In this document: positions 2 through 34,999 of the stretch, piece by piece
Numbering within the stretch: the first letter of the stretch is position 1
Layout: every line of letters starts with the position of its first letter
The notes under the pieces: generated by a model
Database searches by the model: none
Seen by the model: the letters and a program-made list of their open reading frames with translations, nothing else
What the model was told of the DNA's origin: nothing
Source: Naegleria gruberi
Taxonomy: Eukaryota
DNA length: 64,000 nucleotides
Assembly: GCA_000004985.1 (NCBI GenBank)
Contig: GG738895.1
Direction: 5' to 3' (one strand)
Position numbers and translations under genes: made by a program

Positions 2-460
2 TGCATTGTTTCTACAATCCTCTTCTTAATTTCTGGTATTGCTCACTTCTTCCTTGGATATTGGCCATTGTACAAGGCTATGGATACTGGTGCCATTCCA
101 AGATTCATCATTTTCTTCATTGCCTATGCTGTTTCAATTATTTTCTGTGCTCTTGGTGTTGCTGGTTATTTGACTTATGGTTTCAGTGGTATTGTCACTG
201 CTATTTACTATTTCCCAACTGGTACATATGGAAGTATTGCTGGATTTGTTTGTAACTTGATCATGGCTGTCATTTGGTTCGCTTTGATGATCAATTATAT
301 CATCATTTTTATTATGGTTATTAAGGTCTTTAGAGCTCTTAAGGGATCTCTTAACAAGATTAAGGAATATGGTGCTGGTTTGGTTCAAAGTGGTGCTGCT
401 ACTGCTATCAGCTCAGCTGTCAAAAATACTATCAGTGGTGGTGGTAGTCAACAAGTTTAA
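2..460 (+). CDS. 3' part of a gene for a multi-pass membrane protein (possibly a permease-type transporter); the 5' end lies outside the window
   Basis: The frame is open from the window edge to TAA at 458-460. The translation is dominated by hydrophobic helices (...GIAHFFLGYWPLYKAMDTGAIPRFIIFFIAYAVSIIFCALGVAGYLTYGF...). No start codon is visible. Confidence 0.45.
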   Translation, partial: CIVSTILFLISGIAHFFLGYWPLYKAMDTGAIPRFIIFFIAYAVSIIFCALGVAGYLTYGFSGIVTAIYYFPTGTYGSIAGFVCNLIMAVIWFALMINYIIIFIMVIKVFRALKGSLNKIKEYGAGLVQSGAATAISSAVKNTISGGGSQQV

Positions 461-494
461 ATGTATTTATCTGTTTGAAAAATACATTAACAAT

Positions 495-1644: not shown

Positions 1645-1743
1645 TTTTTTAAATATTAATTTTTATGTTTTTTATAATAATCTTCCATTGACGATGTTAA
1701 TGAGCCTTTAGAGTCTTAGAGACACCCCTTCGTGGTTTAAAAT

Positions 1744-2581
1744 TTAATCAATATATCTTTGCTTGAAGGCCTTTCCAGTTTCGTAATCTTCAGGAGAAAC
1801 TCTGAAGAATGGAAGGAAGTCTTCTCTCTTCAAGTTTTCAGAATCAAGTTCTTCCATTTCGGAACGAACCCACAAAACGTATGGACGCAAGTAGGCAACG
1901 TCATCTTCTGGCTTAGTCCATTGTTCTCTTGGCAGTCTCTTTTGGTTAACAGACAAGTCAAAAGCACGAGCAAGACGCTTTTCACGAGCACGACGAACTT
2001 CTTCTGGCAATCTGTTGAGAGCTTCAATAATCATTGGATCTTCATCGTTGAGGATATCATCATATAAGAGACCAAAAGTTTGATAACGCATAGAGCTTCT
2101 GTAGGCCAAAGTGACGAAACGATCAGCCTTTTCCCACATTGAGAGATCAGTGTATGGGATTTCAGTGTATTTGGTCCATGGGTTTTGAATTGGGAAACTA
2201 AATGTTGATGTATTTAGTGTTTTTTGTTTTTCATATTGTTGTTTTTATAATTTCCAAAATATTGATGATGGTCAAGTGATAATTGTTTGCGCGGTATTCC
2301 AATATGACAAGAAAGTGTACATCAAGATGATATGTTGACGATGAAATTAATTTCCAACAATAAAACACGACCGTGATGATGATTAAAAATTTTCTCTTCT
2401 TGGCTTTTTCTACTTACGCTTCATAAACGTTGAATTCACCTCTCTTATCAGCAACAGCAACAGTGTCGACAACATCTGGAACAACTGAAGCAGGTAAAAT
2501 TCCTTTAGGGAAGAAGTTCTTGTTGAGGACGAGCATTTCGTTGACGAAACGATAGCCGGTAGCGGCAAGACCACGGAGCAT
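1744..2581 (-). CDS. QCR7: cytochrome b-c1 complex subunit 7 (QCR7/UQCRB)-like protein. Exon 2 (2197..1744) carries the QCR7 homology (LPREQWTKPEDDVAYLRPYV resembles human LPKEQWTKYEEENFYLEPY). Putative exon 1 (2581..2418) adds a 55-aa N-terminal extension across an approximately 220-nt intron (2198..2417)
   Basis: Homology was recalled from memory. Exon 1 ends GAAGC|GTAAGTAG and exon 2 follows ...CATTTAG|TTTCCC, which keeps the frame. Caveat: the exon-1 ORF also reads straight into TAA at the donor, so it could be a separate small ORF. Confidence 0.55.
2247..2317. repeat. copy A of a duplicated promoter-like segment (ATAATTTCCAAAATATTGATGATG...ATGACAAGAAAGTG), located inside the QCR7-like intron
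   Basis: Both ends match 2701..2734 (ATAATTTCCAATATTCAATGATGACAAGAAAGTG). Copy A carries an internal 37-nt insertion relative to copy B. Confidence 0.6.
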
Positions 2582-2700
2582 TTTTTTTGAGTTGAAGCGA
2601 TTTTACAATAGTGAGCATTTATGGTTTTAATAGAGAACATAACAGCTGCTAAAGCTAGTAAGAACAATATTATGGCAATCACAACAACAATTGTTTTTCA

Positions 2701-2734
2701 ATAATTTCCAATATTCAATGATGACAAGAAAGTG
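2701..2734. repeat. copy B of the same segment, in the divergent promoter region between the QCR7-like gene and TOP3
   Basis: Matches copy A at 2247..2317, read directly from the sequence. Confidence 0.6.
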
Positions 2735-2871
2735 AGAGGGAGTTTTTATTCATATTTTGTTTTAATTAAAACAAAATTGATGAGAGGCTTTCGTTCCGAA
2801 TTTTTTTTTACGTTAGGTTTGTGATTGAATTCCTACAAACACTGGAAGCCTCTAAAAAACAAACAAAAAAA

Positions 2872-5800
2872 ATGTCTTCACGTTATCAAAATGCTGGTGG
2901 AGGAGGTAATTACAATAATAGACAAGGACCACACCAGAAAGTGTTATGTGTAGCTGAAAAACCAGAGGCTGCCAAACAAATTGCCACAATTTTAAGTGCA
3001 GGAAAATTTCAGAGGAGAGAAGGAAAATCCAAGTTTAACAAGATATTTGAATTTGAATATAGAATGAATGGTGTTGTTGTAACAATGTCAGTCACATCGG
3101 TTTTAGGTCATTTGATGGAGTTGGGTTTTGATCCGAAATTAAAATCGTGGACATCTTGTGATCCGATTACTTTGATGGATCCTGCAACACCTGTATTTCG
3201 GAATGTGCCAGAGAAGAATTTAGAAATTCAACAAAACCTAGAACAAGAAGCAAGATATGCCACAAAATTATTGCTGTGGCTCGATTGTGATAGAGAAGGA
3301 GAAAATATTGCATTTGAAGTGATTGAAGTTTGCAAGAAGGTAAATCGAAGCCTTTCCATTGAAAATGATTCAATTCTCAGGGCAAGATTTTCAGAGTTTA
3401 CAGCTGCAGCAATCAATAGGGCAATTAGAAATTTGGAAAGACCAAATGTATTGGATAGTATGGCTGTAGATACGAGACAGGAATTGGATTTGAGAATTGG
3501 AGCCTCTTTTACTCGTTTTCAGTCACTCAGACTCAAAAAGAAGTTTCAAGGAATTACAGCAGATTATATTAGTTATGGACCATGCCAATTTCCAACATTG
3601 GGATTTGTGGTAAAGAGAGATTTAATTATCAAGAACTTTGAATCGGAATCATTTTGGACTTTAAATTGTACACACGATATGGGAGAGGAAGGCAAGGCTC
3701 AATTTCTATGGAAGAGAGGTAGGCTTTTTGACCAATTGACTTGCTTGGTCATTTACGAGTTGTGTGTTGAAGCTCAAAGGGCTAGAGTGGTCAATGTGGA
3801 AAAAAAAAGAAGATACAAATACAGACCAGATCCATTGAATACAATTGAATTGCAAAAATTGGCATCTCAGAAATTGAAAATGGGTTCACACGAAACTATG
3901 AAGGTTGCTGAATCATTGTATAATAAGGGTTTTATCAGTTATCCTAGAACAGAAACTAACAATTACAATCAATTCCAGGATGATGATTTGAAACGACTTG
4001 TAAATGAACACACATCAAATCCAACATGGGGTGGTTATGCTTCAGATCTATTGAATGGAGGTTATCAAAAGCCACCTAGTGGAAAGCAAGATGATAAGGC
4101 GCATCCTCCAATTCACCCTCTCAAAGGTGATTGTAATTCCAATGATTCAAAGGAACAAGCTCTCTATGAATTGATTGCAAGACACTTTTTAGCATGTTGT
4201 TCAAAGGATGCTGTCGGTGCCGAGACTAAGGTTATCATTTCAATTGCCAACGAAGAGTTTACTTGCTCTGGATTGATGGTTGAACAAAAGAACTTTTTGG
4301 AAATTTGGAAGTATGATAGATGGTCGGATAAGAGTATTCCAGTTTTCAATGCAGGTCAAGAGTTTATCCCAACCTCATTATTGATGGATCATGGTGAAAC
4401 TCGTCCACCTCCTCATCTTTCTGAATCAGATTTGATTTCTGCTATGGATTCTAATGGTATCGGTACTGATGCCACTGTTGCTCAACACATTAAAACCATC
4501 CAGGAGAGAGGCTATGTCATCAAGAAAGGAAATAGATTTGAAGCCACCAACTTGGGAATGGCACTCTTGCAAGGATATGATCTCATTGGATACGAATTAT
4601 CAACTCCTAATTTGAGATCAAAGATGGAAAAGGATATGCTTAGTATTTCAAAAGGAGAACAATCCAAGGAAGCAGTCATTCACCAAAGCTTGTCCATGTA
4701 CAAACATGTATATATTCAAATTTGTAAATCAGCTTATTTATTGGATAAGGCGGTACAACAACATTTTCCAACTCTTGGTGAAGGACAGAGCAGAGTTTTA
4801 GGAAGAGGATTTTCACTATGTTCCTGTAAGAATCCAATGGACTTGAAGGAGCAGGATGGAAATAATTTCCTTCATTGTAAAAATTGTAGTGATTCATATC
4901 CTCTTCCTTCTAAATCAGAATATGAAAGTATTGAAGATGTTTGCCCAATTTGTAATTTCCAGATACTTAACATTATCACACAAAAGAACACTTCATACAA
5001 GCTGTGTCCTCACTGTTTCAATAATCCCCCAGAAATTGAAAATTCAAATGAATCTTTTGCTAATGGATTCAAATGCTTTAACTGTACATTTACTGGTTGT
5101 AAATATTCGAGAAAGAAGGATGCCGTAGTAAGGAAATGTCAGAAATGTTCCAACAATTTAGTAGTAAGGCAACGAAAGAATGATACCTCCCTTTATATTG
5201 GATGTAAGGGGTTCCCAAATTGTAAATCTGCAGTGTGGCTTCCAAAGTCAATCGAAAAGGCTGATTTGACAACTGAAAAGTGCAACAGGTGTAGTACTCG
5301 TTCGGATACTGTGTATAGATTGAAATTTACATTTGCCCAAGGAACACTTCTACCTCCAGGTGTTAATAGAGAACATACAACTTGTGTATTTTGTGATCAG
5401 GACTTTGATGAGGCTTTCAATATTAATTTGAATTCCCTTAATGGTGATTCAGGTGGTGCTTCTTCCCATGGAGTGCTTGTACACAACTCTACATCGAATA
5501 ATAGAAACATGCCAAATAGAAGTCCAACAATTGCTGGTGGTGGTTATGGAAATAGAACAAGTCCAGTTGGGGCAACAGGGAGAAATATTGCTGCAAGACA
5601 GAATAATACACCACCACCTAATCAAATGACTTTGGATAGAATGTTGGGCAAGAGAACAAGAGTTGATAATAATAATGGAAATAATAATAGCAACCCACCT
5701 CCTCAAAATTCTTACCAAAGAAACAATACATCTCCAAGAAATCAATTCGGAAACAATCATGGCGGTAGTGGATCTGGTGATGTTGTATGTACAAATTGTA

Positions 5801-5919
5801 GCTCTGCACCAGAAATTTTCACTTGTAAGCAGGGAGAAAACCAAGGGAGACAATTTTACAAATGTCCAAATAAGGATAAGGACGAGGCTTGTAAAAAGTT
5901 TTTCAAATGGGTTGATTAA
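2872..5919 (+). CDS. TOP3: DNA topoisomerase III (type IA; Toprim plus Topo-IA core) with C-terminal zinc-ribbon and GRF-type zinc-finger repeats and an Asn/Gly-rich low-complexity tail
   Basis: Single ORF of 1016 aa starting at AAAAAAAATG (2872). Type IA motifs are present (VLCVAEKPEAAKQIA; YISYPRTETN with the active-site Tyr; GFISYPRTET context). Several C-x2-C...C-x2-C zinc fingers precede a C-terminal FYKCP GRF finger. Confidence 0.85.
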   Translation: MSSRYQNAGGGGNYNNRQGPHQKVLCVAEKPEAAKQIATILSAGKFQRREGKSKFNKIFEFEYRMNGVVVTMSVTSVLGHLMELGFDPKLKSWTSCDPITLMDPATPVFRNVPEKNLEIQQNLEQEARYATKLLLWLDCDREGENIAFEVIEVCKKVNRSLSIENDSILRARFSEFTAAAINRAIRNLERPNVLDSMAVDTRQELDLRIGASFTRFQSLRLKKKFQGITADYISYGPCQFPTLGFVVKRDLIIKNFESESFWTLNCTHDMGEEGKAQFLWKRGRLFDQLTCLVIYELCVEAQRARVVNVEKKRRYKYRPDPLNTIELQKLASQKLKMGSHETMKVAESLYNKGFISYPRTETNNYNQFQDDDLKRLVNEHTSNPTWGGYASDLLNGGYQKPPSGKQDDKAHPPIHPLKGDCNSNDSKEQALYELIARHFLACCSKDAVGAETKVIISIANEEFTCSGLMVEQKNFLEIWKYDRWSDKSIPVFNAGQEFIPTSLLMDHGETRPPPHLSESDLISAMDSNGIGTDATVAQHIKTIQERGYVIKKGNRFEATNLGMALLQGYDLIGYELSTPNLRSKMEKDMLSISKGEQSKEAVIHQSLSMYKHVYIQICKSAYLLDKAVQQHFPTLGEGQSRVLGRGFSLCSCKNPMDLKEQDGNNFLHCKNCSDSYPLPSKSEYESIEDVCPICNFQILNIITQKNTSYKLCPHCFNNPPEIENSNESFANGFKCFNCTFTGCKYSRKKDAVVRKCQKCSNNLVVRQRKNDTSLYIGCKGFPNCKSAVWLPKSIEKADLTTEKCNRCSTRSDTVYRLKFTFAQGTLLPPGVNREHTTCVFCDQDFDEAFNINLNSLNGDSGGASSHGVLVHNSTSNNRNMPNRSPTIAGGGYGNRTSPVGATGRNIAARQNNTPPPNQMTLDRMLGKRTRVDNNNGNNNSNPPPQNSYQRNNTSPRNQFGNNHGGSGSGDVVCTNCSSAPEIFTCKQGENQGRQFYKCPNKDKDEACKKFFKWVD

Positions 5920-13856: not shown

Positions 13857-16800
13857 TTATTTAAAAGGTTTTTGTGCTTGTCTAATAATCATGTATAAAT
13901 GTGAATCTTGGAATGAATCATTCCTATCATAGATTGATAACAATTTTTCAATTAATTGAATTGGATCAAAATTGCATTGAGATGGTGGTTTTAACAGTGA
14001 GTGATAATATTTTGAATTGTAAACAATTTTTCCATTTTCATCAATATCACCTCTTCCAAAGGCTTCCATTTCTATTATATTATGAGGTTTTGGGGCCACG
14101 GATAAGAAATTGCAAATAATTGATTGTTCCCATTCATTCTTGAAATATAATGAACATGAAAGAATGAATAAATCTGGAAGGAATCTATTAAGTTTTGCAA
14201 TTCTAGTCACTCTATCAAATTGTGAATTCACAGAAGGGATAGAAAGTGAAAGATTATCATATAATAGTTCATCACTGATATGAATTCTTCTACTGAATCT
14301 ATTCAATGTGAAATTAATTCCTTTTCCATTTTCATTAATAAATTTAAATATTTGATTGGCTTCGTATGGACATATTAAAATTATATAATTATCATTCAAG
14401 GAGTGAACAAACCAATCTATTGGTCTCTTGTAATAATCAATTTTAGAGTCAATTGTTGAAATGACAACATTTTTCATACTTTTGGTTGCATAAATGTTAC
14501 CATTCCAAATATTAGGGAGATTGTAAAGTGCAAAAGTATCAGATAATAATTCTTTAACATTTAACATGGTGGAGATATTTGGCTTGAATCCCATAATTAG
14601 CAATTTCAAATTAGTGTCCAATTCAGGAATACAGGGTTCTAATTGAGGAGGTCTAAATACTTGCTTTTCTTCTTCTAATTCATTTTCCAATTCTCTTTCT
14701 TGTTCTTCATTCAGTGTTTGTGAGAATATTTCCATAGTATTGGTTGACAGTTTTTCAATAATTTTTGAAATATTACTCTCAAATATTGTACAAAGATTCT
14801 TTGTGTGTAACGATCTAAAATGTAATTCTTTCAATTTAAATATTTGTGATAATAATTGCTTCTTTCGTTCTAATCCATAAAATGATTGTAATTCAAGTAT
14901 TTCATCTTCAATATATTTGTCATAGTATTGTTGAATAAGTATTGATTTTCCTAATTCTTGATTTAACCATAGTTTATGACTGTAAATCAATCCTTGGACA
15001 GCCCATTGTAATAAATGATCCATTTCCATTTGTTTTGTATTGAAATGTGTCCAGTTAATTATTTCTCTTGTATTGACAGTATTATTCTCTGATAATTTCT
15101 TAATATGTGAATCAACTTCTTTGGATGCCCAGAATGAAACGGTGTGTCCATTCACAGAACATAATTGTCTCATTCTCATGCATGCTTGAACGAACCTTTC
15201 ATTTGAAAGACCATTTCCTAAAGTAACAGCAGCTCTTGTACTTTCTGGAAATTTAATATCCGTCCCTCTTGTATGTACGTCATCTATGTATGTAACACAT
15301 TGTTCTAACTTGTTTTTATATGGAGACAAATCAAAATTAGTAACATGATTATATCTATCTATGACAGTGAGTTCATCATTATCATTAAAATATATTGCAG
15401 CATGGATTTCGTTTGGATTTGAAATTTCTAACCAATATTGTGCCAATTCTTCATTTGTCATTTCTAACATTAGTGCTCCAACGTCTAGTAATACTCTTGT
15501 TGTTTTTTGTGAATTAGCAATAGATTGAATAATGTCTTTGCATGATTGTTCATTTGAAATAACGTGATATTCTTCATTCCTCAAAATGAATGATTCAACA
15601 TTTTTAGAAGTATCTAGTAATTCTTCTAATTCATTTGATTGAATCGAAATTGGTAATAAAAATGATTTTGTGCCACTGAAACCGCTTGATTGATGATTCT
15701 TTTGATTACTTAAATTCCAAGATGAGGAAGTCAACTTTTTAGGAAATTGTTTGCATTCTTTTGGAAATACACACTTATTTAAATAAAAGTCAATAGCTGC
15801 CATTGAATATTTAAAAAATGGAAAAACTACTTCCATTTTTTGATGATAATCGGATAAGTTAATATTTGATAAAGATTTCAATTGTTCAGGTATTTGATTC
15901 TGACCTTCTTCGACCCATTTACAATATTCCTTTTCTGGGTCATCCAATGATAGCAATTCTTCGAATATATATTCAAGTTGAGAATTATCTAATCCACTAT
16001 AATAATAGCTTAATAATGTTAATAAAATTGCGATATCTGGATGACCATATTCAGATCTTTCAGATGGTACGTCTTTGGCTCTAAATGGAACGGCAATTGA
16101 TCTGTTAAAACCAACTCCATAATTAACTCTCCATCTTCTTTCTAATACAAGCTCCAAGGTTCCATACGCTAATAATCCTCTTAGTATTAATAATGATTCC
16201 CACTGGCTTTCTTTAGAATATTGTCTAATTAATTTCAATGTAGAATCATTAATTTCTTCACATGTCAAAAATTGTTTAAATAAAAGTCTATGTTCTGGCT
16301 TGATAGAAATGAAAATTCCTTTCAAGTTTCCATCAAGAATATCATTAACAATATTTTCTACAAGCAATTCAAAAGCTTTTGAATCTAAAATTCTCAAATG
16401 AGGAAATGAATGTTCAAAATTATTCATTTCCCTAAGTTCGACACAAGACGACCCAAATGAATCGAATAAACCTTTAGAATGTTTCTTAATTGATCTAAAT
16501 ACTTTTTGTAAAACATTCCAACGTTGATCTCTACCATCAATTTTTAATTGATTTCCAATTGTATAAATTAGTTGATACCTGGCATGAAGGATTTCATCTG
16601 ATTCATCTAATAAATCTCTACAATTATTTTCTAACCAATCTTGAACTTTAAATAATTGTTGAAAAAGGTCCGATTTAGATTTGATAGATTCAATACATTT
16701 CAATTCAAATGATAATCTATATTCGGGAACTGTGATGAGAACGCCTCTAGCTTTCATACAATTCGAATATAATGTTTGCAGTAACTCACAATCTAGTACT

Positions 16801-19800
16801 TGATGATCTCTATTAAATGGTGTTACTAGTACTGGTTTATCCAATATTCCACCCAATTTGAATCTTAGTGAGTTATAATTTGATGACAGTAGAGATTTTA
16901 AAACAGTTAATCTAACTAATTGATTTTTGTTCTTTCCAAGTTCTAATATTAACATTGGAATGATTACAGATGATTTACCCTCTCCCATATTAAATTGCTG
17001 CAATATATATGATTAAATGAAAGAAATTAATAAATTATACATACCATTACCATATTATTATGTGAATGAATCATATGATTTGCAACTCTAACTTGAACTG
17101 GTCTAATCATTATATTCATTTCTATTTCTAATATTAACCAATATGGATGGTCAGATGGCTTCCAATTTTCATGACCCTTGTTTTCTAATTCTCTTGAATG
17201 AAGTGTTGTCATTTTGGAATACTCTAAAGCTTTTAATCTTTCAGCTCTTTGCAATAATGTTATTAAAACTCCATAACAACCAACTAAATTTTTCAATTTT
17301 TGATTAGTTTGGTCATCTAATAGTAATTTTAAAATATTGGTCTTTGTTACTCGTGGCCATAAGCCAGCAATATAGAGTGCTTGATTGGTGGTATTATCAT
17401 TTGGATGTAACACTTTTTGTATTAAATCTTCCATTTCCATATAAAGAATTTCAACATTATCATCAACTTGGCCAGTTTCAAAGACTCTAGTTGAGAATTC
17501 AATAATATTACTACTCAAATTATTTAGTTGATCAAAATAATCAACCAAAAAGGTCCATTTAGGTTTGCATGGACAATCTTGAATTTGTTTGAAAATTAAA
17601 GGGAATCTACTTGGTATGGTGTATGATGGCAAGTTATTCACCATAACTTGCAACTTTTCAAGGTAAGTATGGAGTTGATAATTTGCTTTCCTTTCCTCAA
17701 ATATAGTTCTCATCTTTTCCTTGTACGTATCCAGAATTAGACTGGATGATTCGAATGAAATATAAATACTATTAGAAGTTTTAAATGTTGAATAGGTATT
17801 AAGTAAATTATTGCTCATTTTTAACTTTTCCTCTGCGATTCTGTTATCATATTTATCTTGATTTTCTCTTGATAGTGTAACATATAAATCTCTGAATGAC
17901 CTTTTATGGTTGTCCAATATTTCTTGTATAGTATATGCATATACATCACATTCCTTGATATTCCTTTCCTTCTCAGAATGTGGATATGAGTACATGATTT
18001 TATCCTTATTAAGATAAATTAACCCTAATAAATTAACTAGCGTCTCATCAAATTCAAAATACATCAGCATTGTTAAAAAAATTATTAATTTTCTTTTAGA
18101 AAATTGTTGAATTTCATCGGTCAGTTTTGAAAAACACGACTTGATATCAACTGTCATCCAACCTTCAATAGTTTTCAAATCTGTTTTGCAATTCTGTGTT
18201 GAATTGATAATAGATTTTATACTATTCAAAGGTCCAAACATATTGTTCTTCAAAGAGTAACATAATTGTCTGCACTTATTGATTTCTTTGGCGTCGGAGT
18301 GAGTTTTCATCCAAAAACTAGAATCAGAGGATTCACTGTCTATTTCACAATCTTTAGAGTAATAGTGAATATCTTTAAAATACGCCTTCCAATAGAGTAA
18401 ATTTAGTATTATTTTTACTCTTTTCAATACTAATAGCTGAAAATAATTTTGAATTTTCTTTCTTAATTCGTTCGCATAATATCATATAGGAGTCTAATTG
18501 TACAATAGACGATAAATTATTATTCCATGTCGTTACTTGCATATCAGTTAAATGTTCTGGATAATAAGATCTCTGTGGAGATAATGTCGATATTAATTCA
18601 AGTAATTCAATCTCAAACTCTTTCATTGGAATATGTAATTGATAACAACGTTTAGATTTCAAGATAGATATTGCAGCTTCATATCCACACAATTTGGTGA
18701 ATGGATCAGGTAAGAAGTAAGAAGTACATCCATGCAAATATGCTAAATACAACCAACTTGCTAAACTTTGCTCTGCTTCCAATCTTTCCAGTTGTGCATT
18801 GACAGTATAGGTGAAGAAGGGAGGAGATGAAACAGAATTTAAATCAATATCTACTTTTACATGACCACTAATGTCTCTAGCTACTTGAATATCTCCATTA
18901 GGAATTACTAATACTGTATTTTTCGAATAGTTATCAACTAATTTGAGCCCTTTTTGCAATCCAATTAATGTTCCTATTTCAAAGTTAGTGGATACTGTCA
19001 TTCCAAATTGTTTACAAATAAATTGTGAGTAATTATTGGACAGAATAAATATTAATCCTTTTCTAGGTAATTCAACAAAAAGAGTATTATCTTGATAGTA
19101 AGAATGTACATGTTCATCTTTTTCAATTCTGCTCATAATTTTCATTATTTCTGTAAATATTTTACTTCTATTGTCTATAAAATATTTCTTATCCTTCATA
19201 TCTAATAACAATCTACTATTCAAATTCAAAGTATAATGAACCTTTGAGAAATTGGTATCTAAGAAAAACATTGGTCTAAATAAAATACAATTAGATTCCT
19301 TATCAATCCAATGACCATATTTTTCTTTGAGTTGAAAAGGTAAATCTTTTGCAAAATATTCATGCGGAAAATAAACTTTTTCCTTATTGTCCTTGGTTAT
19401 TTCACTGATAATTAAAATTTCTTGCTCGATTTGTGATATTAATTTAAATTTGAAAAAGCTTCCACCAAATGTGTTCTTAGTCACAAAGGACTTGAATTCT
19501 GATCCTGGTTGTACATCAAGGACTATTTAGTGTCAATACATCAACATTCTTCATATACTTACCCATATTTTGAAAAATTCTTTGATATTCATTGCTTTTT
19601 GTAATTATTTCTGGTAGCCGTCCAATAGGAGCATGATTTATCAATAATGTTCCGTTAATAATGTTAACTTGGATGAGAACTTCGTTAAATTTAACATAAT
19701 ACCAATTTTCAGATTCTGCATATTGATGCCATTTCAAATTCAATTCTTCTAAATTTCTAACTTCACTCCATTTTTCTTTCAGGAAAATGTTTAATTCAGA

Positions 19801-22800
19801 GCTATCTTTTAACGAATCATGAATTGAATCTTGAATTAATTGTGATGTCTTGATTGTTTCTCTGAACAATAACTTTCTAAATTGAGGGAGTGTATTTAAA
19901 CCAATATTATTCAAAAGTAAATTTTCGTAAATTATTGATCTCGCAAGCAACCATTTAGAAAAATCTCCTAGTAATCTCTGGGAAGAAAAAGGATGAAAAG
20001 TTAAACAGCAGCAACAAGCTGTTTCAGTTTGCAAGTTTCGAATGTTTGTGCACTCGATCGGATTGTCAATAATTTTGAGCAATACTTGTTCACTTTTAGA
20101 TAACCACACAAGGCAGAGTTCTCTAATATCAAGTAATAATTTCTCAACTCTGTTATGCAATCTAGTATTTTCACACATTTCCAAAAATTTTTTGGCACAA
20201 AATACAATGATTACTAATTGATTAATAGATTTCCAATTATTTTCAATTTTTTTCAATAATTTCTGAAGTAGTGAAACAAGCTCATTTGAAAAATTCAAAT
20301 CTCGAACAGGATCATTTGTTTCTCTCCACCAATCTCCTTTGGAAGGGCATGATTGTAATAAACTTTGGAGAATTAAAAAACAAACATCTTGTTCATCAAA
20401 AGAGAGTACGTTATTTGAAAGAACTTTGGCTAAATTATGCATTTGAAGACGATAGCCAGCCCTAAATGATCCAAATTCTATAAATTCTGTAAGAGGAAGT
20501 TTAGGATGACAATTAATTTGAGAGGATAAAACATCATTCTGGTTGTGGCAATAATTTCTAAGGAAAGGAATCAAGCTATTATACCTTCCATTCTTGTCTA
20601 GTAAAAATGAGCATTCTTCAACAATACTGGATTTTGAGAAATGTACGTACTTTCCATCGATAGAAATTCGAAGATTCAGAGCGTTTCTTTTTATAAATTC
20701 ATCTTCAGAATTCCTTGGGTGGTGTTGCTCTTTAGAGTAATGGGATCTCAAATAAGATTTTTGAGAGCTTGTTAAACTAACTCTATTGTGTTTAGTGTTA
20801 GAGTTGTGGTTTCTTAAATACTCTTTCCAAATTTCAGTGCAACCATTAGCTTTTTGCCTTGGATTGTAGTAGTTTACAATTTCAAAGAACTCAATCAATA
20901 CATTGCTCAAGCATCTAAACTCATCAGGAATTAGTAATTCAAAAATAACAGCATTTTTCAAATAATCCTCTTCTGGTAGAACTTTTTCGTATGGCGTAAC
21001 ACTCATTTCACTTGCCCGGTTCTGGTAGTAACATTTCGAACAATGAGATCTGCATTTGTAACGGCGATGGTATTCACTATAATATTCATCATGGGAAATT
21101 TTGCTAGCTTGTTCCAGGTATTCCTGATACGTTTGTTTTGCTTTTCTAACTTCATCTTTTTTAGCTTGGATTTTCTCTTGAATTTCTTTTTCAATATTTT
21201 CTCTCAACCGGATCATAGTTGGATTTCTGTTTGCATATCTGACAGAAAATGAATTTCGGCTTATTTCTGAAAGAAAATCAGGTTGATAAATAGCTGACTG
21301 TTCGAAATTATTGAAATAGGTTTCAAGTTCGAATAGATATTTCCATTCATCTTTTCTATTGAGGTTAATATAATTGAAAATTGAGGTATCAATACCAGTC
21401 TTGTACTCTTTAACCATAGATGATTGTTTTTGTGCAAATTCTATTAACTTTCTAATGATATTTAGACAAGTGAGAATCATTCTACTGAATCCCATTGGAT
21501 CAGTGGCATAAACTGTTTTTGCCACTACTACGTATTGTGTAAATAGGTTATTTAAATTATTAGGTGTACAGTGATAGTCTGTTATCATGTTCTTTCTAAC
21601 CCATTCTTCAATAATAAATAATTCAGATAAAGATGCTTCACCACCGTCTGTTTGACTAATCGTAAATTGAGAAATACTAAAAGATCTATTGAATGATTTT
21701 GGAACAATTTCACTTTCGTCAACTGTTTGTTGTTCTATTTCTCTGTAAAGGTTAATGACTTTTTCAGACTCAACCAATTGTTGATAAATATTATCAGACT
21801 TGTTGGCTGCTGAACCTAAAGTCAAATTAATTTTGGAGGTATCACTGCAAATAATATTCCAATTATTATCCAGATATTTTCTTTGTTCAGCAATAAACTT
21901 GTAGGCATAAGTCAAAATATGCTTGGTTTTAGGATCGTGCAAATCATCCAACTTTTTAAGTCTAATTGCTAGTTTTGAAATAACTTGTAATTTTACCTCA
22001 TCACTCATTTCATGGAAGTGCTTGTTAGCAATATGAATGAAATATTTCATCAATACTGCCTTATAATAAACTTTTCCATCATTCTCGCCATACTTCCAAA
22101 CAAGTAACAATTGCAAAATAATTTTGATGGACATCCACAATCCAGATCTCCTGTAAGGATGCATGGCATTGCTCCATTCAATTGAATTTCTAATCTTTTT
22201 GTTGATCATCTTCTCGTGAGCTAATTCACCACCAAGAAGAGCAACCAACCACTCTGTGATAATTACTGAAGAAACTACATCACGCCCTTCATCTTCTTTA
22301 CTGCCAGCTTTTGTTGATTTTGGTCTTATTTGACCTATTTGATTCGAAAACAAATCTTGCAACAAAGTGGCAAGCTCATCAGAGCAAAGCATTGAGAGAT
22401 TCTCATCCTTGACACTGATAGTAACCTCAGGATAAAGTGTTACAAGATCGCCACACCTAGACATAATCTCCTTGTTGTTTGGATGCACTGTAAATACTGA
22501 AACTTTAGCAGATTGTCCCTTCTCCTTACGAATGATCAAACATGCATTACAGTTTTGAATATAGAGAGGAAGTATAACATTAGCATTGGTATCAAGTAAA
22601 CTTTGTACTTGGCCACCGTCTAAACCAAGTTTGGAGTCAATCTCATCCACATCTTCTTGAACAGACATCCAATTTGTAAATGCCTTCTGAACATCTGCAA
22701 ATTCAACGGCTAATTCATCCATTTTCAAAAATTGGACAAACTCTAAAAGATGAAGTAAATCATAGCCAACAGTCTCTTGTGATGGCAATTTTTTCAATAA

Positions 22801-22842
22801 AAACAAGTCACACAAGAATGTGTCTAGAAATTGTGTTGACAT
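13857..22842 (-). CDS. giant protein of about 2940 aa carrying DUF3638 (MGEGKS P-loop-like motif) and DUF3645 (HTRGTD motif) domains, in 4 exons (22842..19563, 19522..18431, 18372..17051, 16997..13857)
   Basis: Four long collinear minus-strand ORFs joined by short introns: 19523..19562 (GTAAGT..AAATAG), 18373..18430 (alternative donor at 18418), and 16998..17050 (GTAATG..TTGCAG). NMGEGKSSVIIPML is at the start of exon 4 and DDVHTRGTDIKFPESTRAAVTLGNGLS at about 15200-15310. The total coding length is divisible by 3. Confidence 0.7.
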
Positions 22843-22897: not shown

Positions 22898-23007
22898 GAG
22901 GTTGTGAATTCCCAACCTCTTCTGTTTATGTTTTCCGAAGGGTTGGGAAGTCTAACAAATTTTTTCCGAAGGTTGGGAAGTCTGAACATTTTTTTAATTT
23001 TTCGGAG
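22898..23007. promoter_or_regulatory. upstream motif cluster of the giant gene. It comprises a 7-bp-stem hairpin GAGGTTG-TGAATTCC-CAACCTC (22898..22919), then two tandem copies of a 33-bp unit TTTTCCGAAGG(G)TTGGGAAGTCT(A/G)AACA(A/T)TTTT (22931..22997), then a partial third TTTTCGGAG
   Basis: Direct reading. It lies 55-165 nt upstream of the ATG at 22842 on the minus strand and just downstream of the stop of the ankyrin/F-box gene. Confidence 0.5.
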
Positions 23008-30913: not shown

Positions 30914-33900
30914 TTATTGGAATGGAGAAACTGATGACCTAGGGGATGATGTTGCAGGAGAATCTGGAGTGTTATTGCCAGCAGAAGTACGGGAAGTTAA
31001 AGGAGCATCCGAGGTACGAATATCTGTCATTCTGGATCTTCTGTGTTGTAACTCTCTGAAGGAGACTTCTGATTGAATGACATCTTCAGAGGAGGTGGAA
31101 ACGAATAGTGGACTCACAGATTTACGAGGTGTATCAATTTCTATATTCATTTCTTCTCTCAATACTTCCACAACTTGTTTGTAATGATTACTAGTGACAA
31201 ATCTTTCATAAGTGTCGATCATTAGGAGGGAAATTACTCTTTGAATAGGGTCGAAAATGTCAGCTCTAATGCTGTCGTCATTTTCATTTAAAAGCTCCAC
31301 TTCAATTTCCTTTACCATTCTTCGAGAGAGGTTTAGTTCTCTCTCAGATCCTAAGCGTAAGTACTCGTCATAGATCTTTCTTCCTTCCTCGAGTTGTTTT
31401 GAAGAATCCATTAGGGCTTTATATTCCTCAACACGTGCCCAGAAAAGAATATTCTCCTCAGAGTGTTCCAGCTCACAATAGGAAACAAAATAGGGTCTCA
31501 GTTTTTCGCTCGATCTAATAACTTCCAACTCTACATTAACTTCCTTATTGTCATCATTGCTAATATTGGAAGGAATATTGAGTGAGGAATTGTACTTGTA
31601 CTCAATTGTTATATCATCAACATCACGTTGCTTTAGAATACAAATCTTATTTGATACATTGGTATCCAGATATTTGAACAGGTATTCCATTAGATCTTTT
31701 TGTGAACCAAAATCATCTTTGAACCACTCGAAAATCTTGGATACATAAATGGTGTTGGTCTCCAAATCAATTCTAGTCTCTCTTTGGATGTATTCTCTGG
31801 TGGCCTTATCAATTTCACTTTCCATATTTTCCAAGGTGAAGAGATTAAACTTTGGAGAACCCATATCGGCTCTGAAAAGACAAAAATGGATTCTTGGATC
31901 AAATTCTGGAATTCTCAAATTACTGATAGCGTTGAGAAGTGGATTGTCATCCTCACTTGATGTCTTGAATAACTTTTCCCTAAACGATGAGGATATCGAG
32001 TCCTTACCAACATTGATATTTCCACTAGACTTTCTTTGATATTTTTCTCCTCTAAGAATACCATGAGCAATCATGTCCAAGCTCAATTTGTATCTTCCAA
32101 TCATGTACTTTTTTTTTCTGAAGAACCTCTTTCTCAGTAAAAAGTTGGTAGGTTTACCACAAGTTATCAGAGCATGCAATACCATAATGTTGTGAATATT
32201 GATAAAGAAGCACTTTCTAAAAGTAGGATCAAGCATTGTTGTCGTGTCAATCTTTTGCAGCTTTCTCATTTCATTGAGAATTGTAACAAAATGTTCACTG
32301 AAAGCAAAACCTTGATAGTCGAAAATTGGCAGATCGTTATACTTTGAGCTTTGATCATATTTCATCATAATTTCCTTTCCTACTTGTTTAATGACTCGGT
32401 AAATGGACATGAAGGATGATTGTGGCTCGAAAACACCAATCATGTTTGGATCTATATTGAGTGTATTGGAATTTTCATATTCATCAGTGAAAATGTAGAG
32501 AACATTTGGATCATCTTCAAACTTGGAGGTAAACTTGTCCATATTGATAAAAACCATTCTGTCCATCATTTGTTGAGCAAACCAGGCTGCGTCTAATCGC
32601 AAAAACTTGTCATGACTATTTTCTTTAATCCAATCGACTATATCAGAACCACTGAATGATTTGGCATGCATTCTATTGAATTTAGACCGAATCAAGTTCT
32701 TTTGTCTCGATATTCCTGCCTTCAATCTTTGCACAAAGGACTTTTCATCCTCCTCAAAGTTATATATACAGAGTGTTAAATCCTCAGTTGGATCAAAGAG
32801 TGGATTTGTTGTAATGTACTCCTCATCGTAGAGAGGATTAATGAATGATATTTCTTGCTCGTATAAACTATTTACAATTCTTTCACCTTCCTCGAATAAT
32901 CCACAATTGAACACTTCTTCAAATTCTTCATCATCGAGCTCATCCTCGTCCGTGTAGGTTTTTGGAGAAGTGAAATCCTCAAAACCTTTACTTCCCAGGG
33001 TGTGGAAGATTTGCTTGTGAACCCATTGTTGCTTTCTATAATCATCAATTATCCTCTTGATTTTATGAGAAATGAGTTGGGATTCCAATATTTTCTTTAC
33101 CACTGATTTGGATCTTCGCTTCTCACCATCCAACATGGAATTAATATTTTCCTGGTACGTGTTGTAATTAGTCTTTCTAAAGTATTTGGCGTAATCTTCA
33201 TTCTTTTCAATTTCTACATCTTTAAAAACACTTCCAATATTGAATGAAATGGTACTAGAGGAACTGAGAGCTTCAGCAAAATGACCACTCTTGCTTTCCA
33301 TCTGGTTTCTGGTTTCAGCAATAGATTTGAGACTGTGTGAGCTCATAATATCCATTCCACTAAAAGAATTGACAACAACAGGAGAGGATGTTTCTTCCTC
33401 ATCATTACAAGTAGCATCATCGTCACTACTGGCATCATTAATTGAAGAAGTGTGGCCAGACTCTGTCAAGTCTCCATTATTCATTTCCGTATCTACAGTG
33501 TCAATTGATGTCAGAATATTATCAGTAGAGTCGGTACTAAAGGTACTAGTGTTTCCTTCCTGTTTATCTGACTGAGGAGAGACAATTTCTATGGTTATGT
33601 TATTACTTTCTCTAACTTTTTGCAAAATTGACTCTACAATTGTTTTGATGACTTGTTTTGTTTCTTCTTTGATGTTATTTTCCTTTTCTTCTTGTTGATT
33701 GATTTGATTAATAGCTGTTGTTTCCACAATAATTGGAGTTATTGTTGGAATTGTTTCAGTAATTTGTTCGTTCTCTTCCTCAGGTTTGGAGATTGGAAAT
33801 GATTCTGTTAAAGTAATTGCTGATGTTTCTTCTATTGATGAATCAATAGTAGTTATTGTTGAAGGTTGTTGTTGTTGTTCTACTTCTTGTTGAACTAATT

Positions 33901-34999
33901 CATGGTTAATTTCAAGAGTTTCAATTGAAGAAATCTCATTGATTTCTTCTGAAATTGGCTTGATTTCTACACAAATCTCTTCTTTTTCTTTTGGAGAAGG
34001 CAATTGTTGCTCTTGTTCTGATTTGTGTAAATTTTCAGACTGTACAGATTGTTCTTGTTGTTTAGAAAGTATTTCATTTGATTTGTGAATCTTATTAGTA
34101 GTAGCATTAGAGGTTGTTTTTTGTATGAGTTGAGTAAATTTCAAAATGGTTTGACTCACTCGGGATGGTTTACTACTATTAGCACTAATTGAAACTACTT
34201 CTAATTCCTTCTTATTTGATGATGATGATTTATCCACATTGAATTCAGGTAGGGATGATGTTGTTTTCCTTGTTTCACTTGTTGCTGCTGGTATGGTATT
34301 GTTACTACTTTGTATGGATAGGGATTTTGATGGAGTTGTATAATTATTACTTGTTGTTGATGTGATTTCATGTTGTTGTTGTTTATCAGAAGATGATGAC
34401 GAAGATGATGGTGAAGATTGAAAATAGGCAGAAAGGTTCTTATTGATGGAAGTAATACTCTTTACAGGGGATATAAAACTATTGTTATTATTACTAGTAG
34501 TAGTAGAAGAGGTTACAGGTGTGGTTGCAGTCGTGACTGGTAAATAATCAATCTAAAATCAAGTCAAGTCAATATATATAATTATAATCAATTCGTTCAA
34601 AATTGTATTATATTATATGGATGATAATTAATATGATGAAATCAGCAATGATAATGATTATTCAGCACAATGACAAATATCGTGTTGATGATGATGAACA
34701 AAAAACACAAAAATTCAACAAAATACAAAAAACACAATATAACCTACCCGCACAGAATGTCTCGTCTTGACTGGATTTCGTGGTGTTGTTGAAGGACTAT
34801 TCAAGGTAGCATTCTCCTCTTTTTTAATATTTTCTTCCCAGAGTTGTTTTAGCTGTGAGACTCTACTAGAGAGTGGAGTGGATAAAGAAGTAGATGAAGA
34901 AGATGATAATGGAGAAGTGGTGATATTGGAAATGTTGTTGTTGTTTAGAGCAGATAGGTTGAGAGAGGGCGTACTTGTTGCACCACCTTCTTGTGTCAT
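30914..34999 (-). CDS. large RGS-domain protein (DEP-like plus DUF547-like plus a C-terminal RGS domain) with a Ser/Thr/Asn-rich N-terminus, in at least 2 exons (34999..34744 and 34536..30914)
   Basis: The C-terminal RGS domain reads PYFVSYCELEHSEENILFWARVEEYKAL. A DEP-like stretch reads GSDIVDWIKENSHD. The first exon is joined via an intron of about 207 nt (34537..34743, weak GTTATA donor). The exon 1 boundary is approximate. Confidence 0.6.

What the first reader, a model, noticed from the sequence alone, without database searches (positions are those of the whole stretch)
13857..22842. Gene of about 9 kb encoding a roughly 2940-aa DUF3638/DUF3645 giant protein
Four collinear ORFs joined by three short introns of 40-58 nt encode a single huge protein. 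Exon 4 opens with NMGEGKSSVIIPML, the GxxGKS P-loop-like signature of DUF3638. About 560 residues later the HTRGTD signature of DUF3645 follows (DDVHTRGTDIKFPESTRAAVTLGNGLSNERFVQACMRMRQL). Proteins with this domain pair are large eukaryotic proteins of unknown function as far as I know. The remaining roughly 2000 residues have no motif I can name. Its promoter carries the repeated GGTTGGGAAGTCT motif (see next finding).
Basis: partly seen in the sequence, partly recalled or inferred. Interest (0 to 1): 0.5.

Follow-up and report, generated by a model that had tools for sequence, protein, structure and literature searches.

The report
Giant SecA-like ATPase gene in Naegleria
This 9-kb stretch is one real gene of the amoeba Naegleria gruberi. 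It encodes a protein of about 2,950 residues from a large, widespread and unstudied eukaryotic family, whose engine is an ATP-driven motor folded like the bacterial protein-export motor SecA and whose biological job is still unknown.

Summary
On the minus strand, 22842-13857, four collinear ORFs join into one open frame of about 2,950 aa. Pfam finds DUF6606 (3e-39), DUF3638 (6.8e-78) and DUF3645 (1.3e-15). The product aligns end to end with giants of about 3,000 aa from Willaertia, chytrids, Hydra and many fungi.

Introns 1 (40 nt) and 3 (47 nt) are confirmed by gap-free homolog alignment. Junction 2 may be a 46/58-nt intron or a 1-nt frameshift.

One detail is wrong. HTRGTD is not DUF3645, which is the AVPFRAKD...GHPD loop about 275 residues upstream. 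HTRGTD is helicase motif V of a second RecA domain that no Pfam model covers.

AlphaFold2 plus Foldseek puts the core closest to SecA (E 4e-8), then MDA5/RIG-I and DinG. Six collinear motifs match E. coli SecA, and a 290-aa insertion sits where SecA carries its preprotein-binding domain. A profile-profile test against SecA is not significant.

This is a new member of a catalogued DUF family, apparently missing from public protein sets. Function remains inferred.

The parts
13857..22842 (-). Whole coding region of the giant gene (ATG 22842-22840, stop 13859-13857). Working model is 2,950 aa.
   Evidence: Collinear with Willaertia P0303 over aa 13-2949. The termini match those of homologs.
19563..22842 (-). 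Exon 1 (aa 1-1093)
   Evidence: ORF. tblastn of the model back onto the window.
19523..19562 (-). Intron 1, 40 nt, GTAAGT...ATAG
   Evidence: Only this acceptor restores VLDVQPGSEF, which aligns without gaps to homologs.
18419..19522 (-). Exon 2
18373..18418 (-). Junction 2. It is modelled as a 46-nt intron (alternative donor at 18430 gives 58 nt), but it may instead be a 1-nt frameshift within about 18400-18440.
   Evidence: This is unresolved.
17045..18372 (-). Exon 3
16998..17044 (-). Intron 3, 47 nt, GTATGT...TTGCAG
   Evidence: It gives NNMVM|QFNMGEGKS, which matches Willaertia EN-MVMQFNMGEGKT.
13857..16997 (-). Exon 4 (includes the stop codon)
22033..22806 (-). Pfam DUF6606 (aa 13-270). 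It lies within aa 1-333, a beta lobe between two helical clusters. I infer that this is the part that matches the cysteine-protease-like domain plus cap of Legionella AnkD/AnkH.
19723..21645 (-). All-alpha scaffold (aa about 400-1040). It includes a Cys/His knuckle at aa 590-604 (window 21031-21075) and the conserved N769/Q775/C778.
   Evidence: AF2 secondary structure. Only generic alpha-solenoid matches. Conservation.
17357..19704 (-). Unmodelled middle region: a conserved block at aa 1047-1460 (includes H1357, D1366 and W1426), then a poorly conserved linker at aa 1461-1800.
   Evidence: Conservation profile. No Pfam hit.
16470..17173 (-). Pfam DUF3638 (aa 1862-2080), which is the first RecA-like domain. 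It holds the Q-motif IRPVQ (17093-17107), Walker A NMGEGKSS (16968-16991), Walker B LLDESDE (16593-16613) and QLIYTIG (16554-16574).
   Evidence: Pfam 6.8e-78. Invariant residues G1909, G1911, K1912, D2035, E2036 and D2038. AF2 and Foldseek. Motif comparison with E. coli SecA. Weak Pfam DEAD hit, E 0.015.
15684..16553 (-). Helical insertion of about 290 aa (aa 2053-2342) between QLIYTIG and GFSGT. This is the same topological site as the PPXD (preprotein cross-linking domain) of SecA. It contains Pfam DUF3645 (aa 2204-2231, window 16017-16100), an invariant loop predicted with low confidence.
   Evidence: Invariant residues A2206, V2207, P2208, K2212 and D2225.
15090..15683 (-). Motif III GFSGT (15669-15683) and the second RecA-like domain, with motif V HTRGTDI (15255-15275) and motif VI FVQACMRMRQL (15162-15194). 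No Pfam model covers this stretch.
   Evidence: AF2 strands and helices. Foldseek hits to SecA, MDA5 and DinG. SecA AGRGTDI and QLRGRSGRQG. No Pfam hit here.
13860..15071 (-). A 39-residue helix after RecA2 (aa 2547-2585), a disordered acidic EEQERE stretch, and a C-terminal alpha/beta region (aa about 2590-2950).
   Evidence: AF2. Lower conservation and occupancy.
22931..22990 (.). Two tandem 30-nt units in the 198-bp intergenic promoter. Each holds an exact GGTTGGGAAGTCT (plus strand, so the reverse complement relative to the gene). A degenerate inverted copy lies at 22905-22917.
   Evidence: With 2 mismatches allowed, 7 of 100 shuffles give 3 or more matches. The tandem 30-nt units are the stronger evidence.

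Best explanation
This is a single, apparently intact nuclear gene of Naegleria gruberi. It encodes a giant multidomain ATPase of about 2,950 aa from the DUF6606-DUF3638-DUF3645 family.

Shown:
- The core (aa about 1860-2540) is a superfamily-2, two-RecA 'DEAD motor'.
- All nucleotide-handling motifs are present and conserved across the family: Q-motif, Walker A GEGKS, Walker B DESDE, motif III GFSGT, motif V HTRGTDI and motif VI QxCMRMR.
- Its predicted structure is closest to SecA.
- A helical domain of about 290 aa, carrying the invariant DUF3645 loop, is inserted at the same point of RecA1 where SecA carries its substrate clamp (PPXD).
- A long helix follows RecA2.
- Part of the N-terminal 1,093 aa (about 235 aligned residues) has the fold of the AnkD/AnkH clan-CE-like 'cysteine protease-like' domain.
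- DUF6606 lacks a conserved Cys/His.
- About 700 residues of alpha-solenoid follow.

Inferred:
- The AnkD/AnkH-like part is aa 1-333 (DUF6606). The tools do not report which residues matched.
- ATP binding and hydrolysis at the RecA1/RecA2 cleft opens and closes the DUF3645-bearing insertion. This grips and moves a polymer substrate (polypeptide or nucleic acid).
- The DUF6606 pseudo-protease module and the solenoid act as the recognition and scaffolding platform.

Relatives keep the motor but swap the N-terminus for TIR, ankyrin or redoxin/NZF modules. The family is patchy and expanded in particular lineages. I therefore favour a surveillance, conflict or quality-control role over a housekeeping one. 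The substrate and the biological role are not established.
For: One gene:
- Frame analysis.
- Gap-free homolog alignment across junctions 1 and 3 and at both termini.
- Full-length collinearity with Willaertia P0303 at 34% identity.

Organism:
- The neighbouring Topo III ORF is 100% identical to N. gruberi P0027.

Family:
- Pfam hits far above their cut-offs.
- 4,393 representative clusters at E<=1e-3 and 1,405 at E<=1e-30.

Motor:
- AF2 model of aa 1790-2950, pLDDT 74.6, core blocks at 80-95.
- Foldseek against PDB: ranks 1-5 are all SecA or SecA2 (E 3.9e-8 to 8.9e-8), followed by MDA5/RIG-I/LGP2, DinG/XPD and UvrB.
- Six collinear motifs are shared with E. coli SecA, with comparable spacing.
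- Walker A and B residues are invariant in 27-30 family members.
- Weak Pfam DEAD hit.

N-terminus:
- AF2 pLDDT 78.8.
- AnkH and AnkD are described as ankyrin + clan-CE-like protease-like domain + cap (PMC6712400). LegA15 is reported as an atypical GTPase (PMC9757750).

Modularity and variability:
- P0148 carries TIR + Ank, P0147 carries Ank, and P0026 carries redoxin + zf-RanBP on the same core.
- DUF3638 genes appear among expanded or lineage-specific fungal genes and in a microsporidian large gene family (PMC6627653, PMC6237848 and PMC5423893).
Against: - No experiment exists on any family member, so ATPase activity, substrate and role are all inferred.
- SecA-specific kinship is not supported at sequence-profile level. 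hhalign of the family against one SecA gives E 0.46, and against an 81-sequence SecA alignment E 0.3. hmmsearch of the family profile against PDB sequences finds nothing.
- Foldseek E-values for SecA and MDA5 differ by only about 4-fold, and TM-scores are low (0.26-0.44), as expected for flexible multidomain models.
- The inserted domain is helical, not PPXD-like.
- The fold-search tools do not report which residues matched AnkD/AnkH. Assigning the match to aa 1-333 rests on secondary-structure pattern only.
- aa 1094-1789 were not modelled.
- Junction 2 could be a frameshift. If real, it would make this copy a pseudogene.
- No PADLOC or NCBIfam defence model matches.
Confidence: 0.6

Rival explanations
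1. The motor works on nucleic acid, not polypeptide. On this view the protein is a giant RNA/DNA helicase or a nucleic-acid sensor of the RIG-I/MDA5 or DinG/XPD type, and the SecA resemblance reflects only the shared SF2 fold.
For: MDA5, RIG-I, LGP2, Dicer, DinG, XPD and UvrB all match at E 1e-7 to 1e-4, just behind SecA. There is a weak Pfam DEAD-helicase hit. A relative fused to TIR (P0148) recalls helicase-based immune sensors. DUF6606 has many conserved basic residues (K215, R231, R232, K261, K290, R294, K297).
Against: Motif wording (GEGK[ST], G[MF][ST]GT, RGTDI) and the insertion site after the strand that follows Walker B match SecA rather than RIG-I-like helicases. In RIG-I-like helicases the Hel2i insertion sits in the second RecA domain (the Hel2i placement is from my own knowledge). 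No recognisable nucleic-acid-binding domain was found by Pfam.
Confidence: 0.25
2. It is a deubiquitinase or Ubl protease, as the automatic UniRef name 'ubiquitinyl hydrolase 1' for homologs implies.
For: UniRef names several homologs this way, including N. lovaniensis and Hydra. The N-terminal region matches a clan-CE-like protease-like domain. A distant relative carries ubiquitin-binding-type zf-RanBP fingers. C778, H1357 and D1366 are conserved in at least 90% of members.
Against: Pfam finds no DUB or Ulp domain of any kind (UCH, USP, OTU, MINDY, Josephin, Peptidase_C48). DUF6606 has no conserved Cys or His. C778 and H1357 are 580 residues apart, and C778 sits in an all-alpha region. The VTD-DUB paper does not cover this family. 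The name is machine-propagated and no experiment was found.
Confidence: 0.07
3. The locus is a recently disabled pseudogene in this strain. Junction 2 is a genuine 1-nt frameshift, which would also explain why no N. gruberi protein for it is in public sets.
For: Homology continues in the downstream frame inside the proposed intron 2. Only about 40 nt separate the two coding frames, and the donors GTAAAA and GTATTG are weaker than the GTAAGT and GTATGT of introns 1 and 3. No N. gruberi protein was found by an exhaustive search.
Against: The other 8.8 kb have no stop or frameshift, and all catalytic motifs are intact. A canonical GT..AG intron of typical size restores the frame in a poorly conserved linker. 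An assembly error in the A-run is equally possible.
Confidence: 0.15
4. It is a horizontally acquired or mobile-element-borne gene rather than an old resident gene.
For: The phyletic distribution is patchy: Heterolobosea, chytrids, Dikarya, Hydra, a fungus gnat, and by literature ciliates and microsporidia, plus distant Chlamydiales giants. The CDS has the lowest GC and GC3 (30.1% and 23.6%) of 15 ORFs in the window.
Against: The gene has host-type short introns. It is tightly packed between host genes, with 198 bp to the upstream gene. No flanking terminal or direct repeats were found. Its closest relatives are other heteroloboseans (Willaertia 52%, N. lovaniensis 53% over the core), which fits vertical descent.
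Confidence: 0.1

Closest known systems
Pfam DUF6606-DUF3638-DUF3645 giant proteins (for example Willaertia magna KAL9653555, and fungal 'ubiquitinyl hydrolase 1' entries of about 3,100 aa)
   Same: All three Pfam domains occur in the same order, the length is the same (about 3,000 aa), and the alignment is collinear end to end. All motor motifs are conserved.
   Different: Identity is only 25-38% to fungal members and 34-52% to Willaertia. Several family-conserved residues are replaced here (D467I, R513F, R646S, H843N). This copy is not present in the public protein collection.
SecA preprotein translocase motor (PDB 3jv2, 1tf2, 6sxh, 4uaq; E. coli SecA)
   Same: It is the best structural match. 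The shared collinear motifs are RxxxVQ, GEGK[TS], DExD, [PQ]LI[IY][ST]G, G[MF][TS]GT, RGTDI and an arginine-rich motif VI. A large domain is inserted at the PPXD site, and a long helix follows the second RecA domain.
   Different: - No Pfam SecA model matches.
- Profile-profile comparison is not significant.
- The inserted domain is helical and about 290 aa, not an alpha/beta PPXD.
- The protein is about 3 times larger, eukaryotic and non-plastid.
- There is no evidence of a partner channel.
RIG-I-like and DinG/XPD SF2 helicases
   Same: They share the two-RecA fold with accessory insertions. Foldseek E-values are 1e-7 to 1e-4.
   Different: Motif wording and insertion topology fit SecA better. 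No CARD, CTD, FeS or Arch domains were detected.
Legionella effectors AnkD (7ew8) and AnkH/LegA15 (6mca, 7kj6, 7xql)
   Different: Sequence identity is 8-10%. There are no ankyrin repeats. The His-Asp-Cys triad and the GNCSWANV motif of AnkH have no conserved counterpart in DUF6606.

Membership tests
DUF3638/DUF3645 (+DUF6606) giant protein family | PF12340 (DUF3638) match above the gathering score, containing the GEGKS P-loop | tested here: met
   261.5 bits against a cut-off of 31, aa 1862-2080
DUF3638/DUF3645 (+DUF6606) giant protein family | PF12359 (DUF3645) match above the gathering score | tested here: met
   56.8 bits against a cut-off of 25, at AVPFRAKD...GHPD (aa 2204-2231), not at HTRGTD
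DUF3638/DUF3645 (+DUF6606) giant protein family | PF20255 (DUF6606) at the N-terminus | tested here: met
   135.4 bits against a cut-off of 27, aa 13-270
DUF3638/DUF3645 (+DUF6606) giant protein family | Full-length collinearity with members of about 3,000 aa | tested here: met
   aa 13-2949 against 23-3098 of Willaertia P0303. The termini coincide.
SF2 helicase-like (DEAD-motor) ATPases | Two tandem RecA-like domains | tested here: met
   AF2 model. 71 PDB matches at E<=1e-3. All of the 50 listed are SF2 ATPases: SecA, RIG-I-like/Dicer, DinG/XPD, UvrB, a pre-60S ribosome chain and two chromatin remodellers.
SF2 helicase-like (DEAD-motor) ATPases | Motifs Q, I, II, III, V and VI in canonical order and conserved | tested here: met
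   Read directly from the sequence and the family alignment. Weak Pfam DEAD hit, E 0.015, below the cut-off.
SecA family | Match to SecA sequence models, or significant profile similarity | tested here: not met
   No SecA Pfam hit. hhalign E 0.46 and 0.3.
SecA family | Closest fold is SecA, with SecA-type motif wording | tested here: met
   Foldseek ranks 1-5 are SecA or SecA2. GEGK[TS], G[MF][TS]GT and RGTDI are shared.
SecA family | PPXD inserted in NBD1, and HSD/HWD after NBD2 | tested here: inconclusive
   The insertion is at the same site but helical and twice as long. A 39-residue helix follows RecA2. No residue-level superposition was available.
SecA family | Drives polypeptides through the SecYEG channel | not testable with these tools
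   This needs biochemistry.
Deubiquitinase / Ubl protease ('ubiquitinyl hydrolase 1') | Recognisable DUB or Ulp catalytic domain | tested here: not met
   No such Pfam hit.
Deubiquitinase / Ubl protease ('ubiquitinyl hydrolase 1') | Conserved catalytic Cys and His in the protease-like fold | tested here: not met
   The DUF6606 alignment has no conserved Cys or His. C778 and H1357 are conserved elsewhere, but their proximity was not tested.
AnkH/AnkD cysteine-protease-like domain | Fold match | tested here: met
AnkH/AnkD cysteine-protease-like domain | His-Asp-Cys triad in rGHa / D/NRg / GNCSWANV motifs (PMC6712400) | tested here: not met
   These motifs are absent from DUF6606.

The most novel reading that the evidence does not exclude
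The DUF6606-DUF3638-DUF3645 family may be an unrecognised class of eukaryotic cytosolic SecA-type polymer-threading machines. In this reading a SecA-like DEAD motor, whose clamp is the DUF3645 insertion, is coupled to a catalytically dead Ubl-protease-like reader (DUF6606). The machine would serve ubiquitin-linked protein extraction, or act as an innate-immune sensor and effector whose N-terminal module can be exchanged (TIR, ankyrin, NZF/redoxin). It would be ancient enough to be shared by Heterolobosea, fungi and cnidarians.
Probability: 0.15. Interest if true: 0.75.

Novelty: new member of a known kind. Interest (0 to 1): 0.42.

Why it matters
The family is large: about 4,400 clusters at 50% identity, most members near 3,000 aa. 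It spans fungi, protists, some animals and Chlamydiales, yet essentially no literature exists and the machine-assigned enzyme name is probably misleading.

Three results turn a pair of DUFs into a testable hypothesis with point mutants (K1912A, E2036Q, the DUF3645 loop):
- The engine is a complete SF2 motor that resembles SecA.
- HTRGTD/QxCMRMR are helicase motifs V and VI in a domain that Pfam does not model.
- The N-terminal region contains a protease-like fold, most likely DUF6606, which lacks a catalytic Cys/His.

For N. gruberi specifically, the gene appears to be missing from the public protein set, so the model given here is a usable annotation. None of this changes the fact that the gene is an ordinary member of an already catalogued family.

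Tried and rejected
- **VTD deubiquitinases:** I suspected these were the source of the 'ubiquitinyl hydrolase' name. The paper (PMC9741609) does not mention these DUFs or giant ATPases, so I dropped the idea.
- **Sequence searches against PDB:** exon 4 alone gave no hit. The full family profile gave only two chance hits at E about 1.
- **PADLOC and NCBIfam scans of the four exon ORFs:** nothing.
- **Literature by Pfam/InterPro accession:** nothing. By DUF name there were six papers, and the five I opened mention them only in passing.
- **The look-up of encoding contigs:** neither the neighbouring ORF nor N. gruberi Topo III is on record, so I could not view the reference annotation.
- **Word-indexed homolog searches:** they returned only 26-35 proteins and missed the heterolobosean orthologs later found by the exhaustive search (against 51). 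They could therefore not be used to deepen the AF2 alignment.
- **hhalign against SecA (one sequence, then 81 sequences):** the motor motifs aligned correctly, but the result was not significant.
- **Upstream alternative introns for junction 2:** all would delete conserved residues, so I rejected them.
- **Search for a paralog in the window:** none found.
- **Flanking repeats of a mobile element:** none found.
- **QNCNAC as a protease active site in DUF6606:** rejected. The Cys is Ala in the family consensus, and the segment is a beta-hairpin turn.

Full report
**What is in the sequence**

The feature lies on the minus strand. Four long ORFs follow one another at 22842-19516 (1,108 aa, ATG start), 19484-18375, 18427-17027 and 17003-13857. 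In DNA of about 30% GC, stop codons make up roughly 8% of random codons (my estimate), so ORFs of more than 1,000 codons cannot be chance.

I enumerated every GT..AG pair near the three junctions. All combinations with the required length modulo 3 give a single open frame of 2,930-2,950 aa.

**The junctions**

Homolog alignment fixes two junctions.
- Intron 1 is 19562-19523 (40 nt, GTAAGT..ATAG). It gives ...YQRIFQNMVLDVQPGSEFKSFVT..., which aligns without gaps to Willaertia ...YNRIFGNHVFEVQPGSSYNTFVT....
- Intron 3 is 17044-16998 (47 nt, GTATGT..GCAG). It gives ...NNMVMQFNMGEGKS against Willaertia ...ENMVMQFNMGEGKT.

The N-terminus (MSTQFLDTFLCDLFLLKKLP) and the C-terminus (...QAQKPFK*) coincide with those of homologs. 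The whole product is collinear with Willaertia P0303 (aa 13-2949 against 23-3098, 34% identity). My working model has 2,950 aa: exons 22842-19563, 19522-18419, 18372-17045 and 16997-13857.

Junction 2 is not secure. A 46-nt (18418-18373) or 58-nt (18430-18373) GT..AG intron restores the frame. However, the downstream frame is already open inside that interval and encodes LLYWKAYFKDIHYYS. This resembles Willaertia KEYWRSINYYS and chytrid KAYWQSCEFYG at the same alignment position. The upstream frame is clearly coding to about 18440. Only about 40 A-rich nucleotides separate the two frames, which is too short for an intron. A 1-nt frameshift, whether an assembly error or a real lesion, is therefore about as likely as an intron. 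Either way the difference is 15-19 residues in a poorly conserved linker.

**Organism and setting**

The ORF at 2872-5916 is 100% identical over 1,015 aa to 'predicted protein [Naegleria gruberi]', a topoisomerase III. The next-best named hit is Willaertia magna at 59%. The window is therefore N. gruberi nuclear DNA.

The neighbours are ordinary host genes:
- a weakly ankyrin-like ORF that ends 198 bp upstream of the ATG;
- a DEP-DUF547-RGS protein;
- two EGF/teneurin-like proteins.

No paralog of the giant gene lies in the window, and no terminal repeats flank it. Its CDS has the lowest GC (30.1%) and GC3 (23.6%) of the 15 long ORFs examined.

**Family**

Pfam gives three hits (numbering is that of the 2,950-aa model):
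- DUF6606, aa 13-270, E 3e-39;
- DUF3638, aa 1862-2080, E 6.8e-78;
- DUF3645, aa 2204-2231, E 1.3e-15.

Its motif assignment is wrong in one respect. DUF3645 is the loop SIAVPFRAKDVPSERSEYGHPD, not HTRGTD (aa 2479), which lies outside all Pfam hits.

An exhaustive HMMER scan of 1.84 billion representatives with the 720-aa core found 4,393 clusters at E<=1e-3 and 1,405 at E<=1e-30. The best were Willaertia magna (52%) and a 681-aa Naegleria lovaniensis fragment (53%). After these came a fungus gnat, chytrids, Hydra vulgaris and many Dikarya.

No N. gruberi protein appeared. The clusters of the two best hits contain only Willaertia and N. lovaniensis sequences. The gene therefore seems absent from the public N. 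gruberi protein set.

More distant relatives keep DUF3638 (most also DUF3645) but carry other modules: TIR + ankyrin (P0148), ankyrin (P0147), and redoxin + zf-RanBP (P0026). A 3,074-aa Chlamydiales protein has DUF3638 only.

Literature is almost nil. These DUFs appear only in gene lists, a figure legend or passing mentions: among expanded or lineage-specific fungal genes, in a microsporidian large gene family, and as two newly detected Tetrahymena genes.

**The motor**

AlphaFold2 on aa 1790-2950 with 29 homologs gave pLDDT 74.6, with the core mostly at 80-95. Foldseek against PDB returned 71 matches at E<=1e-3:
- ranks 1-5 are SecA or SecA2 (3jv2, 6sxh, 2ibm, 1tf2; E 3.9e-8 to 8.9e-8);
- then MDA5/RIG-I/LGP2, DinG/XPD and UvrB.

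I fetched E. coli secA and compared motifs directly.

| Motif | E. coli SecA | Giant protein |
|---|---|---|
| Q-motif | MRHFDVQ | MIRPVQ |
| Walker A | MRTGEGKTL | FNMGEGKSS |
| Walker B | LVDEVDSIL | LLDESDEIL |
| Strand after Walker B | TPLIISG | YQLIYTIG |
| Motif III | AGMTGTA | SGFSGTK |
| Motif V | AGRGTDI | HTRGTDI |
| Motif VI | QLRGRSGRQG | VQACMRMRQL |

The order is the same and the spacing is comparable. Walker A to Walker B is 104 aa in SecA and 126 aa here. Motif III to motif V is 120 aa and 138 aa.

Between the strand after Walker B and motif III, SecA carries its 160-aa preprotein cross-linking domain (PPXD). At the same site the giant protein carries a helical insertion of about 290 aa whose centre is the invariant DUF3645 loop. 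That loop is predicted with low confidence, which is typical of a functional loop. A 39-residue helix follows RecA2, as the helical scaffold domain does in SecA.

Walker A and B residues are invariant, and motif V residues nearly so, across 27-30 members. This argues for a working ATPase.

There are caveats. Profile-profile comparison with SecA is not significant: E 0.46 with one sequence, and E 0.3 with an alignment of 81 SecA sequences that I assembled. TM-scores are low. MDA5 is only about 4-fold behind SecA in E-value. I therefore call it SecA-like, not a SecA family member.

In passing, Zhang et al. 2012 (PMC3482391) list 'SecA-like helicase-related domains' among Amoebophilus effector modules, next to Otu peptidases. 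I could not tell whether that is the same family.

**The N-terminal half**

AlphaFold2 on exon 1 (aa 1-1093, 24 homologs) gave pLDDT 78.8.
- Residues 1-333 form a beta lobe between two helical clusters.
- Residues 400-1040 are nearly all helical.

[quoted passage not shown] LegA15 was later reported to be an atypical GTPase (PMC9757750).

The tools do not report the matched residues. From the secondary-structure pattern I infer that the match is aa 1-333, that is DUF6606.

The DUF6606 alignment has no conserved Cys or His. Its conserved residues are mostly basic (K215, R231, R232, K261, K290, R294, K297; motif PWRRSP). It cannot be a canonical CE protease and is more likely a binding module.

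This weak protease-like ancestry, or co-occurrence with Otu domains in other proteins, may lie behind the automatic UniRef name 'ubiquitinyl hydrolase 1'. No DUB domain is detectable.

C778, H1357 and D1366 are conserved in at least 90% of members.

**Mechanism and verdict**

Shown:
- one gene;
- family membership;
- a complete, conserved SF2 motor that resembles SecA, with an insertion at the PPXD site;
- an N-terminal AnkD/AnkH-like fold, and a DUF6606 domain without a catalytic Cys/His.

Inferred:
- that the AnkD/AnkH-like fold is DUF6606 (aa 1-333);
- ATP-driven clamp movements of the DUF3645 insertion on a polymer substrate;
- DUF6606 plus the solenoid acting as a recognition scaffold;
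- a conflict, surveillance or quality-control role, suggested by N-terminal module swapping (TIR, ankyrin, NZF/redoxin), patchy distribution and lineage-specific expansions.

The rivals are a nucleic-acid helicase or sensor, a true DUB, a frameshifted pseudogene, and a horizontally acquired gene. They are scored separately.

The gene is a new and apparently unannotated member of a catalogued but uncharacterised family. It is of moderate interest, mainly because the fold assignments make the family experimentally approachable.

Noticed in passing
window 22905-22990: The 198-bp promoter region holds two tandem 30-nt units (TTTT(T)CCGAAGG(G)TTGGGAAGTCT...). Each has an exact GGTTGGGAAGTCT. A degenerate inverted copy (GGTTGGGAATTCA) lies at 22905-22917. 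No other copies occur in the 64-kb window.
   Followed up: partly
window 13857-22842: No N. gruberi protein for this gene exists in the 15-billion-protein collection. The best representatives are Willaertia (52%) and N. lovaniensis (53%), and their clusters hold no N. gruberi member, although the neighbouring Topo III is present at 100%. The gene seems unannotated in the reference proteome.
   Followed up: partly
window 18373-18440: Junction 2 may be a 1-nt frameshift in an A-rich run rather than an intron. The downstream frame inside the 'intron' encodes LLYWKAYFKDIHYYS, which is homologous to Willaertia KEYWRSINYYS.
   Followed up: partly
window 13857-22842 against other ORFs: The giant CDS has the lowest GC (30.1%) and GC3 (23.6%) of 15 long ORFs in the window. 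The others have GC 32-37% and GC3 26-36%.
   Followed up: no
window 16017-16100 (aa 2204-2231): In a non-significant hhalign alignment, the DUF3645 consensus RWRVxYGLD...LAVPYRAKDxP pairs with the conserved SecA segment EFxxIYGLEVVVIPTNxPMxRxD that follows motif III. This may be a coincidence or a trace of common descent.
   Followed up: no
window 20509-20511 (C778) and 18734-18763 (H1357..D1366): C778 (in QxxCP), H1357 and D1366 (in LAYLHxxTSxxLPDP) are conserved in at least 90% of family members. They are the only candidates for a thiol-protease-like site, but they are 580 residues apart and their spatial proximity was not tested.
   Followed up: no
window 21031-21075 (aa 590-604): There is a Cys/His cluster (HRRYKCRSHCSKC; family consensus C-x14-H-x3-C-x2-C) in a low-confidence loop of the helical scaffold. 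It could be a small zinc knuckle.
   Followed up: no
P0148, P0147, P0026, P0152 (L002 9168-18392): Distant relatives carry the same motor on other modules: TIR + ankyrin (5,393 aa), ankyrin (5,213 aa), and redoxin + zf-RanBP (4,256 aa). A 3,074-aa protein of a Chlamydiales bacterium has DUF3638 only.
   Followed up: partly
window 2872-5916, 30914-34237, 38684-41740, 51912-54929: Neighbouring genes are an intronless topoisomerase III-alpha with a GRF zinc finger, a DEP-DUF547-RGS protein, and two large EGF/teneurin-like proteins, one with a weak GPS motif.
   Followed up: partly
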